A stretch of DNA of 64,000 bases from Desulfosoma sp. Its GTDB lineage: Bacteria > Desulfobacterota > Syntrophobacteria > Syntrophobacterales > DSM-9756. The position numbers were made by a program. Positions 25,601 to 31,106 of the stretch are shown here, piece after piece (within the stretch, counting starts at the first letter, position 1; every line of letters begins with the position of its first letter). The stretch is taken from positions 128,001 through 192,000 of the forward strand of contig JBBFKW010000005.1 in assembly GCA_037481835.1 (NCBI GenBank), in the 5' to 3' direction.

Positions 25601-28600
25601 GCTCAAGGATGTGCCATTGCGCTGGGATCCTCGATATCGCCTGTGCCTCATTGCCGTGAGCGGCCGGACCAAAGGGAAAAAGGGCTGGTACAAGGGCTAT
25701 CCGGACCGGTACAAGATCGGGGTTCCCATCTACGGCTTGGAAGCCATAGACCCGGGGTGTTTGGTTTTCCACTCGGGAACGGGATGGGGGGATAGCGGGG
25801 GCTTGGTCACCACGGGAGGGCGGGTGTTCGGCATCGTGAGCACGGGGCAAACCCTCGAGGAGGCTCGAAGCATCGCCTACCGGGAAATGGAAAAGGTGAC
25901 ATTCGAAGGCATGTACTACAGGAAAGACATCGGCAGGGATTGAGAAAGCGCCGGTCGAACGGTGCACGACGTCCTGTGGGCGGGAAAGGGAGCGATCATG
26001 GTGGAAAAACACCCCCTTGTGGGCGTTCTCATGGGGAGCGATTCCGATCTTCCGGTGATGGAAGGGGCTTTCGAGGTGCTTCGAAAATTTGAAATTCCCT
26101 TCGAGACGGCCGTGCTTTCGGCCCATCGCACACCGGATCATGCGGCTCGATACGCCGAGACGGCGGCCGGGCGGGGCTTGAAAGTCCTCATTGCGGCGGC
26201 GGGGTGGGCCGCCCACCTGGCAGGCTTTCTGGCTTCCAAGACAACCCTGCCCGTGATCGGGGTTCCTATTGATTCGTCACCGCTCAAGGGCATGGATGCC
26301 CTCTTGTCAACAGTGCAAATGCCCCCGGGGATTCCCGTGGCCACCATGGCCATCGGCAAAGGCGGCGCCCGAAATGCGGCCCTCTTTGCGGTCCAAATCC
26401 TGGCCCTGTCCAATGAGGCCTTATCGGAAGGGCTCCGACGGTACAAGGCCGATATGGCCTCGGACGTTCTCGCCAAGAATGAGAAGATCGAGGCGTCCGT
26501 GAGGGTCCGGGACCTGGCATGAAACCGCTTCGGCGATGGATCCCGCCGCTCGTTCCTGTCCCTCGGGATTTGGAAGAGCTGCTGCACCGAGGGGGCGTGA
26601 TCATTTACCCCACGGAAACCGTTTACGGGTTGGGGGGGAACCCCGAGATCCCCGGCGTCGTGGACAGGATCTACGAAATCAAAGGGCGTCCTTCGGGAAA
26701 GCCGCTTCCCCTGATTGCGGCCGATGTGGATGCCGTTCGAAAATGGACCGTGTGGCGAACCGATCCGCTGGATCGCCTTGCGGAAGCCTTCTGGCCGGGG
26801 CCGTTGACCCTCGTTTTGGAAGCTTCGCCCCGGGTGCCGAAAGCTGTGGCGTCGTCCGAGGGGACCGTGGCCGTCCGGGTGAGCTCCCATCCCGTGGCGG
26901 GGATGCTCGCCCGAGCGTGCGGCGGCTGGATTGTGGCCACCAGCGCCAATCTTTCCGGACAATCGCCGGTTTCCGACCCGGCGGCGATCCCCTCGGCTTT
27001 GCTGCACGCCGTCGACGGGCTTGTGGACGGCGGGCCCCTTGCTCCCTCTTCCCCGTCGACCCTGGTGGCCGTCCGGTTCCATCACGGGCGCGTTTCATGG
27101 GCTGTTCTTCGTGAAGGAGCGGTTTGTCGGGAAACCTTGTCCCTGTTTTTCGACCGCGGAAAGAACGCGGCAGCGGAGGAACTTTGATTTACTGGCTGGT
27201 TACGGCGGGGTTTTTCTTGACGGCTTTGGCCGCCGGCGGGCTGTGGAGTGCCCGAGCCTGGCGAAGGGATCTCAAGGGAGCGAGGCGTGTCGTCCTCACC
27301 GGCGGAGGCACGGGCGGCCACGTGAATCCCGCCTTGGCCATTGCCGAGGCCATTAAAAATCGGGAACCGGACACCCGGTTTCTCTACGTCGGGGTTGCCG
27401 GCAAGGCCGAAGCCGTCATCGTAAAGCGCGCGGGCCTGCCTTTGCGGTTCGTGTCGTCCCGGGGTCTTCCCGGATATCGACCGTCCCCGGCCTTGCTGCG
27501 TTTTTTGATCGCCTGGGCATGGGGGATCGTGCAGTCCGTGGCGATTTTGGTTCGGTTCAGGCCTCATTGGATCATCGCCACGGGAGGCTACGTGAGCGCT
27601 CCCATCGTGACGGCGGGCGTTGTGCTCAGAGCGCTCGGCATCGCCCCGGTGAAAATCTTCGTGCATGAACAGAACAGTGTCCCAGGCCAAATGAATCTCC
27701 TGCTGGGGCGCTACGCCCACCGGGTGCTCCTGACCTTTCCCCAAACCTTGGCCTACTTTCCCAAAAATGGGGTCGTCGTGGGCTATCCGGTGCGGGGTTC
27801 CATCCTGGAAATCCCTGCAGAGGAAGCCCGCCGGAGGCTGCCTTTTTCAATCCCGGAAGGCCGCAAAGTCGTCTTCGTCTTCGGCGGCTCCCAAGGGGCG
27901 AGAACCATCAACCGCGCCGTGGTGGAGGCGCTTTCCGTGTTGGCAAATTACCGGGACCGCCTTTTCCTCATTCACGGCATGGGCTTGGCGGCTTCGGAAG
28001 ACTACCACGCCGTGCAGGATACCGAAGCCTTGTTGAGGGCCCGCTACGGGGACGAGGTTCTGGCGTCTTTCCAGGATTTTTATTACCGGCAGGACTACTT
28101 TCACAACATTGCCGAAATCTACGCCGTGAGCGATCTTGTGGTGTGTCGAAGCGGCGCCGGCAGCCTCAACGAGCTGGCCCGGCTAGGAAAACCTTCTCTC
28201 TTGATCCCCAAGGCCAATCTCCCCGGCGACCATCAGGTCATGAACGCCAGGGCCATGAAGCAGGCCCGGGCCGCCGAGGTCCTTTTCGAAGACACGGTGG
28301 TGGAAGAAGGCAAGCTTCGCGACCGCATCGACGGGCTGCAGCTTGCGGAAAAGATTGTGGAGCTCCTCGCCGATGACGACAAGCGGGCCGAAATGTCACA
28401 GAAATGCCGCCAATTTTTCAGAAAACAAGCGACGGCGAGGATCTTGAGCGAGCTCTACGGAGACCGCAGTTTCGACAACGGCTGGACGGCCCACACCTTG
28501 GAATCCCTCCCGCCCCTCCTCACCAACACCCAGCTCTTGCGTCGCCTTCAAAAGGCGTATGAGGCCGATCCGAACCATTACGATCCGGAGCGGATAGCCG

Positions 28601-31106
28601 ACATCGCGGAAGATTTGGCCTATTACCGCTACCGAGCCGCCGCCCTTTTGGTCCATCCTGCGTGGTCCATGCGAAACCTCGGCGTGAAACTCATCGGCCT
28701 CACCCGGTACCACGAAAAGGCGTCCACTTTGATTCACATGCTTTTGGATCGCACGCCCGCCTCACGCCTGGAACGCCTTTTCGGCGGCGACTACCACCAG
28801 GTGGGCTTTATTCGCCGCAACGCCGTTTCGGCCCTGATGGTGATGAACCGCATGGAGTCTTCCGTGGAAGAAGCACTCATGGCGGCCATGGAAGATCCCT
28901 ACTACGAGGTCAGGGCCCAGGCATGCCGAGCGGTATCGCATTTCGGCCGGCATTTGGCCGGAAAGGAACGATGGCTGAAAATCCTCCTCAAGAAACTGGA
29001 GGACCACTGTTTTGAAGTCACCGTGGAAGCGGCTCGGGCGCTGGGAGAAATCGGCACGGACGGGCGCGCCTTGGAGGCGCTCTTGAACCTCGGCGAGGCG
29101 TTCCACTGGCAGGTACGCAATGCGGCCTTGCTGGGGGTGCGAAGACTCATGGAAAGGCAGGTCATATGGCCGAGCGAAGAGCTCTTAAGGCGGCTCAGCC
29201 GCTTTATCCTGAACGCCCCCGATTTCCGACCTCATTTCGTCATTCGCGAAAACTACAACGCCGTGATGCGACTGTGCCGGCATCCCGGGGGGGTGAGCCA
29301 GGAGGCCGAAAACGTCGAGGCCGGAGCCGTTGCGGGAAAACGCTCATGATTTACGAAATCGCCAACATCATTTTGGATTCGTGGCAGTTTTTTTCCTTTC
29401 TGCGCCTGATCAACTACCTGACCTTCAGGGCCATCGTGGCGGCGCTCACCGCCGCCGTTTTCATGTTCCTCTTCAGCCGCCGTTTCATCCTGTACGTGCA
29501 CCGGCGCGGTTTCCAGGACCAGCAGCGGGAAACGGGCCTTTCGACCCATGACAAGGGTGGCACGCCCACCATGGGCGGGATCCTCATCGTCGGCGCCGTT
29601 GTTTTTTCCATGGTCCTGTGGGGCAATTGGCGAAGCCCCTTCTTGCTCCTCCCCATGATTGCCATGCTCTGGCACGCTCTCATGGGCTTTTGGGACGACT
29701 ACAGGAAAATTCTTAAAAAGAGCGGAAACAGGGGGCTTTCGGAAAAGACCAAGCTGGCGTTACAGAGCCTTTTCAGCGCCGGATTTGCCTGGATCATGGT
29801 GGGTCCCTTGTCCCCCATGGGGCCGGAGATGGCCGTGCGGCTCTACGTGCCGTTCGTCAAGGTTCCCGTGGCGACCCTTCATCCCCTTGTCTACGCGGTC
29901 TTCATTTTTCTTTTCGTGATTTTCGTCTCCAACGCCGTCAACATCACCGACGGCTTGGACGGGTTGGCCATCACCCCCTCTTTGTTTGTCATGGGCGTGC
30001 TTGGGGTTTTTGCTTATGTGCAGGGCAACACCATCTATTCGGCCTACCTTTTCTATCCCTATCTCAAGGGCGCAGGGGAGCTTACCGTCTTCGGCGCGGC
30101 GTTCATCGGCGCCGGCTTAGGGTTCCTCTGGTATAACGCCTACCCGGCTCAAATTTTCATGGGCGACACGGGCTCCTTGGCCATTGGAGGGACCGTGGCA
30201 GTGGTGTCGGTTCTGCTGAAGCAGGAGTTTCTCTTCCCCATTCTGGGGGGGCTTTTCGTGGCCGAGGCTTTGAGCAGCCAAATTCAGGACAAAATCGGAG
30301 TGCGCTGGCTGGGACGCCGCCTTTTCTACCGCGCGCCCCTGCACCATAACTTGCAGCATCGAGGCATTGCGGAAACCAAGGTGGTCATCCGCCTGTGGAT
30401 CATCTCCGGCCTCTTGGCCCTCGTCGCCCTGGCCACCCTGAAAATTCGCTAGCGCCCCTTTTCACCCGCGCGGTTTCATCGGATCGTGACGGGCCGGCCT
30501 ATGCATGCATAGTGGAATCCCAGCGCTTTCATCTGGCTTGGCTCATAGACGTTGCGAAGGTCCACGAAGACCGGCTGGACGAGGAGGGACTTAATCCGGG
30601 CCAGATCCAGGGCGCGGTACTCGTTCCATTCCGTGAGCAGCACGGCACAGTGGGCGCCTTCGCAGGCTTCGTAGGGGGAGCGGCAGTACGTGACCTCGGG
30701 CAGGTGCTTGGCCGCCTCTTTCATGGCTTGAGGATCATGGGCCCGCACAAAGGCACCGTGCTCCATGAGCGCCGGGATGATGGTCAAGGCGGGGGCTTCC
30801 CGCATATCGTCTGTTTCCGGCTTGAAGGCCAAACCGAGAACGGCGATGGTTTTACCCGCTTCGCTGCCGCCCAGGGCCGCGCGAATCTTTCGCACCATGC
30901 GCGCTTTTTGCGCCGCATTGACTTCCACCACGGCTTCCACGATGCGGCAGGCGACACCATGTTCCTGGGCGATTCTCAGGAGGGCCAAGGTGTCTTTGGG
31001 AAAACAGGACCCCCCGTAGCCGGGTCCCGGATGGAGAAACTTGCGCCCGATGCGTCCGTCCAGGCCCATGCCTTTGGCCACGGCGTGGACGTCCGCCCCC
31101 ACTTCC

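What a model noticed while it worked through the whole genome (the two positions that open the first line are those of the whole stretch)
27124..30452. MurG with N-terminal membrane anchor and C-terminal HEAT-repeat domain, moved out of dcw with mraY
The only murG encodes 741 aa: MurG plus a ~300-aa C-terminal HEAT-repeat domain; murG and mraY sit together away from the dcw cluster, which lacks both. The extension is a class-wide trait of Syntrophobacteria, and in two families the protein is further fused behind a MurJ flippase (~1220 aa), pointing to a lipid II synthesis-flipping complex.
Evidence so far: Pfam GT28 56-436, HEAT_2 583-670; single murG in genome; dcw on C1 runs murF-murD-ftsW-murC; C-terminal part in 28 of 30 class genomes and 1 of 40 other phylum genomes; MurJ in the same 1211-1229-aa ORF in G004,G011,G017,G023.
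(Added by a program. Inside this text positions count along the whole contig: contig position 128,001 is position 1 of the stretch shown here. "Call 12" and the like, gene names such as g00115 and contig names such as C1 are that model's own, and its searches are not shown. The text may have been shortened before it was handed on; [...] marks where a part breaks off. The agent that wrote the report below was given it as the finding of a first reader that could run no searches.)

Follow-up and report, generated by a model that had tools for sequence, protein, structure and literature searches.

The report
MraY partner domain fused to MurG
This bacterium has swapped its usual genes for two essential cell-wall steps for a mobile pair in which a HEAT-repeat domain, here fused to MurG and elsewhere also to the flippase MurJ or standing alone, nearly always accompanies a special form of MraY and probably binds it, which would make it a natural model of a cell-wall precursor assembly line.

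Summary
Confirmed: the genome's only murG (likely 721 aa, start 27184) carries an N-terminal membrane helix and a C-terminal HEAT domain, overlaps mraY, and the dcw cluster lacks both. MurJ-MurG-HEAT fusions are real. Three corrections. (1) Not class-specific: the domain occurs patchily in at least seven phylum labels. (2) Its constant neighbour is mraY, not murG: mraY follows it in 78 of 80 and 40 of 40 loci. In 16 genomes it is a stand-alone gene before mraY; 14 of these keep an ordinary murG beside ftsW/murC. Conversely, 59 of 62 signature MraYs have it upstream. (3) 'Moved out of dcw' is better read as replacement: HEAT-linked MraYs form one branch apart from dcw MraYs and differ in the cytoplasmic TM9b/loop E. 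Best reading: a dedicated MraY-binding subunit that, when fused, tethers MurG (and MurJ) to MraY. A complex prediction gave only weak support (0.46, controls 0.00); no binding or channelling is shown. The anchor is probably the last MurJ helix left from an ancestral fusion. Not found in ten literature searches.

The parts
27175..27179 (+). Shine-Dalgarno-like GGAGG before the likely start codon TTG 27184-27186, which overlaps the sua5 stop
   Evidence: sequence; relatives of 721 aa start at the same residue
27184..29349 (+). murG-HEAT gene, 721 aa, the only murG of the genome
   Evidence: model pLDDT 93.2, pTM 0.90
27187..27270 (+). N-terminal helix (residues 2-29): hydrophobic stretch, then Trp and basic residues; probable membrane anchor, probably the remnant of the last MurJ helix
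   Evidence: homology to MurJ TM14 is inferred from position and tree, not shown by sequence
27280..28464 (+). MurG core (GT28, GT-B fold), residues 33-427, with family-specific Tyr201 and an insert near 270-296
   Evidence: Pfam, TIGR01133 233.6 bits, cut-off 250.25, Foldseek and VIA top hits are MurG
28465..28524 (+). linker, lowest confidence of the folded part (pLDDT 57 at 431-440); MurJ sits at this place in the MurG-MurJ-HEAT fusions
28525..29280 (+). HEAT-repeat domain (residues 448-699), about five alphaRep-like repeats; proposed MraY-binding subunit
28663..28908 (+). conserved patch in repeats 1-3: W494, N498, K502, F542, R544, R545, N546, D571, Y573, E575
   Evidence: weighted conservation 0.98-0.99 in 294 sequences; N498, K502, R545, N546, Y573, E575, R577 kept in 40 of 40 distant loci, stand-alone ones included
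29346..30452 (+). mraY of the HEAT-linked clade, 368 aa, start overlaps the murG stop
   Evidence: TIGR00445 306 bits over cut-off 192; trees
30234..30368 (+). MraY TM9b/loop E region with the clade signature (F297, G318, R329; third His of the HHH motif lost at 335)
23959..27187 (+). upstream purH(N-terminal part)-purD-purE-sua5 genes: the insertion site shared with the fused forms of the class

Best explanation
The HEAT domain is a dedicated cytoplasmic partner subunit of a distinct MraY clade. Its conserved concave groove binds the altered cytoplasmic rim of MraY (TM9b/loop E, loop A). The HEAT-mraY pair is the minimal unit; MurG, and several times MurJ, were fused onto the HEAT subunit later, so that the partner also works as a tether that holds MurG at the MraY active-site face (lipid I hand-over) and, in the triple fusions, MurJ next to both (lipid II hand-over). 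The cassette spread between phyla and replaced the resident dcw copies. In this genome's order the MurJ body was lost from an ancestral MurJ-MurG-HEAT fusion, leaving its last helix as an anchor, and a MurJ of another lineage does the flipping. Shown: architectures, gene order, single copy, residue signatures, tree shapes. Inferred: binding, the site of binding, hand-over, the order of events.
For: mraY directly follows the domain in 78 of 80 GTDB loci (the other two end at contig edges) and in 40 of 40 more distant loci, whatever precedes the domain: MurG, MurJ-MurG, MurG-MurJ or nothing. 16 of those 40 are stand-alone genes; 15 of the 16 genomes have a murG elsewhere, in 14 beside ftsW/murC and of the ordinary type. 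Reverse test: of 62 metagenome loci found by an MraY motif and long enough to judge, 59 have the domain upstream. HEAT-linked MraYs (51) and others from three phyla (51) are two sides of one branch, SH-aLRT 100; signature F297 1.0/1.0/0.0, G318 1.0/1.0/0.02, R329 0.95/1.0/0.0 (fused/stand-alone/no HEAT), third His lost; TM9b/loop E is on the cytoplasmic, ligand-binding face (PMC9768162). The invariant HEAT residues sit at positions that vary among alphaRep repeats (alignments), read as the binding face (recalled). Complex prediction MurG-HEAT + MraY: weak support, 0.46 against best control 0.00, runs agree in at least 90% of contacts, partner pLDDT at least 77; that mark was reached by 116 of 157 solved and 2 of 215 mismatched pairs, but at 0.60 or under by only 18 of the 157 and by both mismatches. 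One murG in 50 of 50 and no second mraY over the cut-off in 59 genomes. Anchored order nests among fused forms (97/97).
Against: No experiment. The complex score is weak, gives no interface and cannot separate the HEAT domain from the MurG core, which is itself reported to interact with MraY (PMC4929429). 3 of 62 signature MraYs have no HEAT gene directly upstream (the rest of those genomes was not seen). The high pTM of the 721-aa model (0.90) suggests that the domain also packs on MurG. Gene adjacency can persist by linkage. Monophyly of the fused families f5+f6 is not rejected (p-AU 0.057), and anchor-TM14 likeness is not significant (hhalign probability 0.2%). The trees lack most phyla and have no root.
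Confidence: 0.6

Rival explanations
1. The groove binds a small ligand, not a protein: UDP-MurNAc-pentapeptide or the head group of lipid I/II. The domain presents substrate to, or senses product for, an MraY whose own sugar-peptide pocket has changed.
For: The invariant set is polar and charged (Trp, Asn, Lys, Arg, Arg, Asn, Asp, Tyr, Glu) and as conserved as the MurG active-site residues; the MraY changes lie in the TM9b/loop E pocket, with loss of the third His and, in 10 of 16 stand-alone cases, the second as well.
Against: A free substrate binder would not need one MraY clade; strict pairing with a signature MraY fits direct contact better. Not exclusive of the best explanation.
Confidence: 0.15
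2. The pair spread because the HEAT subunit caps the cytoplasmic face of MraY and shields it from natural inhibitors (nucleoside antibiotics, phage single-gene lysis proteins); tethering is a by-product.
For: Patchy spread and replacement of a gene that is normally inherited vertically (PMC8871954 passage) call for a selective gain; the altered region is one of the inhibitor hot spots (PMC9768162).
Against: The uridine-pocket and catalytic residues are unchanged; no defence or resistance genes recur beside the cassette; repeated fusion with MurG and MurJ is not explained by shielding.
Confidence: 0.13
3. One reading: the HEAT domain is a MurG extension that scaffolds MurG with MurJ (or with Mur ligases and cytoskeleton) into a synthesis-flipping complex; mraY is just a neighbour.
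For: MurG-HEAT is the commonest form (62 of 80); MurJ is fused in two orders and is a separate neighbour in 11 of 80; model pTM 0.90; MurG is a known scaffold (PMC4929429).
Against: Stand-alone HEAT-mraY pairs in genomes with an ordinary dcw murG keep the same invariant residues; most loci have no murJ; fused model pTM 0.64.
Confidence: 0.08
4. The domain is a passenger with no role in the pathway, kept by linkage.
For: No function is shown; HEAT repeats are common.
Against: 45-60% identity across the class and invariant residues across phyla; co-occurrence in both directions.
Confidence: 0.04

Closest known systems
MurG (GT28; TIGR01133; PDB 1F0K, 3S2U)
   Same: GT-B fold, Z 29.6, rmsd 4.4 over 334 residues; the three glycine-rich loops and the HEQN and Q-x-x-N motifs align with E. 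coli MurG; sole copy in the genome.
   Different: Score under the curated cut-off (233.6 < 250.25); Tyr for the Asn of the G-N-P-V-R motif in all cassette members against Asn in 96% of 28 controls; an insert in the C-domain; membrane anchor; HEAT domain; outside dcw.
MraY (TIGR00445; PDB 4J72, 8G01)
   Same: Over the cut-off; K70, D117, D118, N196, D202, N264, D274, H333 kept.
   Different: Own clade with altered TM9b/loop E and loop A, third His lost; nearly always encoded behind a HEAT domain; no accessory subunit of ordinary MraY came up in the searches.
Natural Mur chimeras (MurE-MurF, MurG-MurC, MurC-MurB, MurC-Ddl, MurD-FtsW, MraY-MurG; PMC10214165, PMC4929429)
   Same: Fusion of peptidoglycan enzymes read as a sign of a complex.
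   Different: Those join dcw neighbours. No MurG-MurJ fusion and no HEAT domain in the passages seen or in the one supplement held as text. Here the flippase is fused in two domain orders, outside dcw.
Affinity-gradient model of MraY-MurG-MurJ (PMC9046198)
   Same: Same three steps and lipids.
   Different: There the lipid passes between separate proteins by rising affinity (passages); here covalent links and a probable adaptor would enforce proximity.
Mycobacterial MurJ/MviN with a cytoplasmic extension bound by FhaA (recalled; search listing only)
   Same: MurJ with an added cytoplasmic domain; an FHA-like domain lies before MurJ in 15 of 17 MurG-MurJ-HEAT fusions.
   Different: No kinase-homology domain found here; the FHA-like part is degenerate and is absent from this window's protein.
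alphaRep / PBS-lyase HEAT repeats (PF13646, PF02985)
   Same: Repeat pattern and helical fold.
   Different: Only generic likeness; no NCBIfam family reaches its cut-off and the Atlas returns only generic HEAT clusters.

Membership tests
MurG (TIGR01133) | GT28 N and C domains with GT-B fold | tested here: met
   Pfam over cut-offs; top Foldseek and VIA hits are MurG structures
MurG (TIGR01133) | score over the curated equivalog cut-off | tested here: not met
   233.6 < 250.25; 2 of 50 relatives pass: a divergent clade
MurG (TIGR01133) | active-site motifs (glycine loops, HEQN, Glu and Gln/Asn of the donor site) | tested here: met
   aligned to 1F0K; G40-42, G45, H46, E162, N164, S236, N243, R322, E330, P342, Q351, N354 invariant in 84 rows; one motif Asn is Tyr
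MurG (TIGR01133) | only candidate in a genome with a full peptidoglycan pathway | tested here: met
MurG (TIGR01133) | GlcNAc transfer to lipid I | not testable with these tools
   needs an assay
MraY (TIGR00445) | score over cut-off and catalytic Asp/His residues | tested here: met
   306 > 192; residues kept in nearly all of 163 HEAT-linked rows
MraY (TIGR00445) | complete HHH motif of loop E | tested here: not met
   third position His in 56 of 59 controls; not His in the window (N335) and rarely so in HEAT-linked rows
MurJ (TIGR01695), fused part in relatives | full-length match over cut-off; charged cavity residues | tested here: met
   284 and 268 > 235.55 for one fusion of each order; class fusions keep the Arg/Asp positions that align with solved MurJ (their essentiality is recalled); several Planctomycetota fusions lack one or two of them
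Canonical dcw cluster | murF-mraY-murD-ftsW-murG-murC order | tested here: not met
   absent here; none of 17 murD loci of cassette genomes holds mraY or murG; controls without HEAT: mraY in dcw context in 29 of 30 and 30 of 30
Known Mur chimeras | listed fusion type | tested here: not met
   not among the types in the passages and supplement text seen
HEAT / PBS-lyase repeat proteins | tandem two-helix repeats | tested here: met
   HEAT_2 49 bits over cut-off 27.7; helical hairpins in the model
Any named HEAT enzyme or adaptor family | family-level match | tested here: inconclusive
   no NCBIfam cut-off reached; the domain was not folded alone, and the fold searches were filled by the MurG part

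The most novel reading that the evidence does not exclude
A second, mobile form of the membrane steps of peptidoglycan synthesis: an obligate two-subunit MraY (enzyme plus HEAT subunit) that has displaced the universal dcw copy in many phyla and has repeatedly collected MurG and MurJ on the HEAT subunit, giving a hard-wired MraY-MurG-MurJ machine that passes lipid I and lipid II from site to site without release.
Probability: 0.3. Interest if true: 0.9.

Novelty: new variant of a known kind. Interest (0 to 1): 0.78.

Why it matters
Whether MraY, MurG and MurJ form a real complex or pass their lipid by affinity alone is open; native mass spectrometry of the separate enzymes supports affinity gradients (PMC9046198, passages). 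These genomes offer natural constructs: MurG joined to MurJ in two orders, and a probable adaptor that ties them to MraY, with stand-alone and split forms as built-in controls. They make channelling and the MraY-MurG interface testable by purification and cryo-EM. The finding also points to an accessory subunit of MraY, a major antibiotic target, and shows replacement across phyla of a gene held to be among the most vertically inherited of the dcw cluster (PMC8871954, passage).

Tried and rejected
741-aa start: rejected, the first 20 codons lie inside sua5 and relatives start at 27184. Assembly artefact: rejected. Class-specific trait: rejected. Second, paralogous pathway beside a normal murG/mraY: rejected for fused forms. 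Own stand-alone MurJ as the released half of the fusion: rejected, it falls in another MurJ lineage (quick tree, few outgroups). Covariation between MurG core and HEAT domain: noise at about 85 effective sequences, nothing usable. Anchor against MurJ helices by hhalign: the last helix scores best but not significantly. Fold of the fused protein: both parts well formed (pLDDT 84) but pTM 0.64, so no verdict on docking. First alignment for that fold misplaced the stand-alone MurJ rows and was dropped (one search used). Fold searches tested only the MurG part; the HEAT domain was not folded alone. Atlas searches gave only generic HEAT clusters. No recurring extra gene beside the cassette outside close kin. 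No RNA holder listed. Promoter/terminator scan at chance level. Apparent MurG-MraY single frames (L067, L068) look like frameshifted long-read assemblies and are not counted as fusions. Literature: searches listed no paper on this domain or on a MurG-MurJ fusion; subscription papers, among them a recalled 2022 survey of dcw evolution, are not in the library and were not seen.
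Full report
Observation. The window holds purH(N part)-purD-purE-sua5-murG-mraY on the + strand, followed by a convergent ugd. 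The murG frame is open from 27124 to 29349. The likelier start is TTG 27184: it follows GGAGG, overlaps the sua5 stop, and 6 of 6 close relatives looked at are 721 aa and begin there. Residue numbers below are for the 721-aa form. Pfam gives both GT28 domains and HEAT_2. An AlphaFold2 model from 69 sequences has pLDDT 93.2 and pTM 0.90: helix 2-29, GT-B core 33-427, a weak linker at 431-440, then helical hairpins 448-699. The best structural matches are MurG of E. coli and P. aeruginosa. It is the only murG. The dcw cluster on contig C1 has no room for mraY or murG (24 and 13 bp gaps). The genome's MurJ is a separate 525-aa gene on C1. A contig from an independent run spans 28090-30452 without indels.

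The class. The C-terminal part matches 79 of 81 class genomes, own included. 21 of the 24 matched f5/f6 genomes have frames of 1197-1264 aa; 10 of 10 scanned are MurJ-GT28-HEAT. The one f4 genome has the same fusion on two contigs. In 10 of the 25 f5/f6 genomes searched the fused MurJ is the only PF03023 match at E 1e-15 or better. The fused genes of f4 and f5 lie behind purD-purE-sua5, as the window's gene does. The fused MurJ scores over the TIGR01695 cut-off and keeps the charged positions that align with solved MurJ.

Not class-specific. A search of 1.84 billion representatives with the HEAT part found MurG-HEAT proteins at 28-45% identity and a second fusion order, MurG-MurJ-HEAT of about 1300 aa (one is labelled Planctomycetes). 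A motif scan of GTDB genomes stopped at 119 stretches; 80 came with flanks. Their record titles name Thermodesulfobacteriota, Acidobacteriota, Gemmatimonadota, Latescibacterota, Myxococcota, Planctomycetota, Electryoneota and single Bacteroidota and Pseudomonadota bins: MurG-HEAT 62, MurJ-MurG-HEAT 9, MurG-MurJ-HEAT 4, HEAT in its own frame 5 (two are clean splits murG | HEAT | mraY, the rest frameshifts or contig edges); a separate murJ is adjacent in 11; no dcw gene lies in any. Spread is patchy: 9 of 291 genomes of the own phylum outside the class, 26 of 201 in the phylum of an Acidobacteriota-labelled genome, 29 of 251 in that of a Planctomycetota-labelled genome. In 50 such genomes (50 of 54 chosen) the cassette gene is the only TIGR01133 match; of 59 genomes 58 have an mraY match and none a second one over the cut-off; murD lies on another contig or far away, and none of 17 murD loci holds mraY or murG. 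Controls without the domain have mraY in dcw context in 29 of 30 (the exception, G192, is a cassette cut by contig ends) and 30 of 30.

The constant partner is MraY. mraY follows the HEAT domain in 78 of the 80 loci, the other two ending at contig edges, and in 40 of 40 more distant loci (20 of the 25 other matches, 20 of the 29). In 16 of these 40 the domain is a stand-alone gene with no murG in the locus. 15 of the 16 genomes have a murG elsewhere; in 14 it lies beside ftsW or murC, and none of the motifs read has the cassette's Tyr. The other 24 add MurG-MurJ-HEAT (13), MurJ-MurG-HEAT (3) and MurG-HEAT (8). N498, K502, R545, N546, Y573, E575 and R577 are kept in 40 of 40, D571 in 39, W494 in 35; in 294 fused sequences these positions are as conserved (0.98-0.99 weighted) as the MurG active site. 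In the alphaRep alignments most of these are positions that vary from repeat to repeat, that is the concave binding face (that reading is recalled).

The MraY is its own kind. 51 HEAT-linked and 51 other MraYs from three phyla fall on two sides of one branch (SH-aLRT 100, quick tree; stand-alone forms near its base, forks open). Against 59 controls, 64 fused-linked and 15 stand-alone-linked representatives share F297, G318, R329 and P157 and have lost the third His of loop E, V316, H67 and W341. Catalytic and uridine-pocket residues are kept. TM9b/loop E is a pocket on the cytoplasmic face (PMC9768162, passages), and MraY's cytoplasmic loops have been proposed as partner sites (PMC4929429, passages). 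A complex prediction of MurG-HEAT (33-696) with MraY (29-364) gave weak support: 0.46, best of 3 controls 0.00; runs agree in at least 90% of contacts, partner pLDDT at least 77; the mark was reached by 116 of 157 solved and 2 of 215 mismatched pairs, but at 0.60 or under by only 18 of the 157 and by both mismatches. It gives no interface and cannot say whether the HEAT domain or the core makes the contact.

History. The class MraYs nest among cassette MraYs of other phyla, several starred branches away from the phylum's dcw MraYs; holding them together is rejected (p-AU 0.0045). So the pair was acquired and the dcw copies lost, rather than moved. GC3 is like that of the neighbouring genes, so it is old. 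The hydrophobic N-terminal helix occurs in the window's order (42 rows) and was not seen in MurG-HEAT of other phyla. On a joined MurG-HEAT+MraY tree the anchored order (100/99) is sister to fused f6 (97/97), with fused f5 outside; all three fused families as one clade is rejected (p 0.0005), f5+f6 alone is not (p 0.057). The fused MurJs of f4-f6 are one clade whose sister is an unfused murJ directly upstream of a cassette murG (G192). In the fused model the last helix (492-521) ends 6 residues before MurG's first strand, as helix 2-29 does in the window. I infer that the anchor is what is left of MurJ's 14th helix (MurJ has 14, PMC12506998, passages); sequence likeness alone does not show it. 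The window genome's own MurJ belongs to another lineage.

Mechanism. Shown: architectures, adjacency in both directions, single copy, signatures. Inferred (0.6): the HEAT domain binds the cytoplasmic rim of its MraY as a subunit; fused to MurG it holds the glycosyltransferase where lipid I is made; in triple fusions MurJ is held there too. Against a rigid MurJ-MurG unit: pTM 0.64 for the fusion, which is what two separately placed bodies would give. Rivals: a ligand-binding domain (0.15), a shield against MraY inhibitors (0.13), a MurG/MurJ scaffold (0.08), a passenger (0.04).

Known and new. The enzymes work like MurG, MraY and MurJ and pass most membership tests; MurG misses the TIGR cut-off and MraY lacks the full HHH motif. 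Described Mur chimeras do not include MurG-MurJ or a HEAT domain in the passages seen (PMC10214165, its one supplement held as text included, figures not seen; PMC4929429). For separate enzymes the current model is hand-over by affinity (PMC9046198, passages); MraY regulation by flipped lipid II is reported as needing no other protein (PMC10914600, passages); mraY was the dcw gene most congruent with the species tree (PMC8871954, passages). Ten searches listed nothing on this domain or these fusions; the library lacks most subscription papers. Verdict: real; a new variant of known machinery with a probable new component; interest 0.78.

Noticed in passing
L096, L126, L129, L133, L292-L297, L300, L327-L330: 15 of 17 MurG-MurJ-HEAT fusions carry a 100-135-aa FHA-like domain between MurG and MurJ (profile hits Ki-67 and EmbR FHA structures, E 9e-5 and 4e-4); the phosphothreonine-binding residues look degenerate. 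L298 and L302 lack it.
   Followed up: partly
L312 (G666) and L449: HEAT-mraY pair inside a dcw-like cluster (murE/murF-ftsW-HEAT-mraY): a possible early or re-inserted state.
   Followed up: no
L035:7379-8953 (own genome C1): The genome's stand-alone MurJ lacks the Arg pair of the second helix seen in the fused and ordinary MurJs; its lineage is shared with the murJ beside the cassette in two Myxococcota-type loci. The murJ beside the cassette in Acidobacteriota lacks two such Arg positions.
   Followed up: partly
L174, L175, L177, L179, L181, L190: In 6 of 17 cassette-bearing genomes looked at, murD stands away from all other dcw genes.
   Followed up: no
L271 and L242 (G192): Unfused murJ 14 bp upstream of a cassette-type murG, with a signature MraY on another contig end: likely state before the fusion.
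   Followed up: partly
window:23959-24549: purH is only the 196-aa N-terminal (MGS/IMP cyclohydrolase) part, followed directly by purD; same in relatives.
   Followed up: no
L422, L430, L439: Signature MraYs with no HEAT gene directly upstream.
   Followed up: no
window residues 523-537 (28750-28794): A hairpin with a short amphipathic helix between HEAT repeats 1 and 2, conserved in most fused forms but missing in many distant and most stand-alone forms; may touch the membrane or MurG.
   Followed up: no
L027 (G080), G047: Frameshifted or split copies of the murG-HEAT gene in single assemblies, probably sequencing errors.
   Followed up: no
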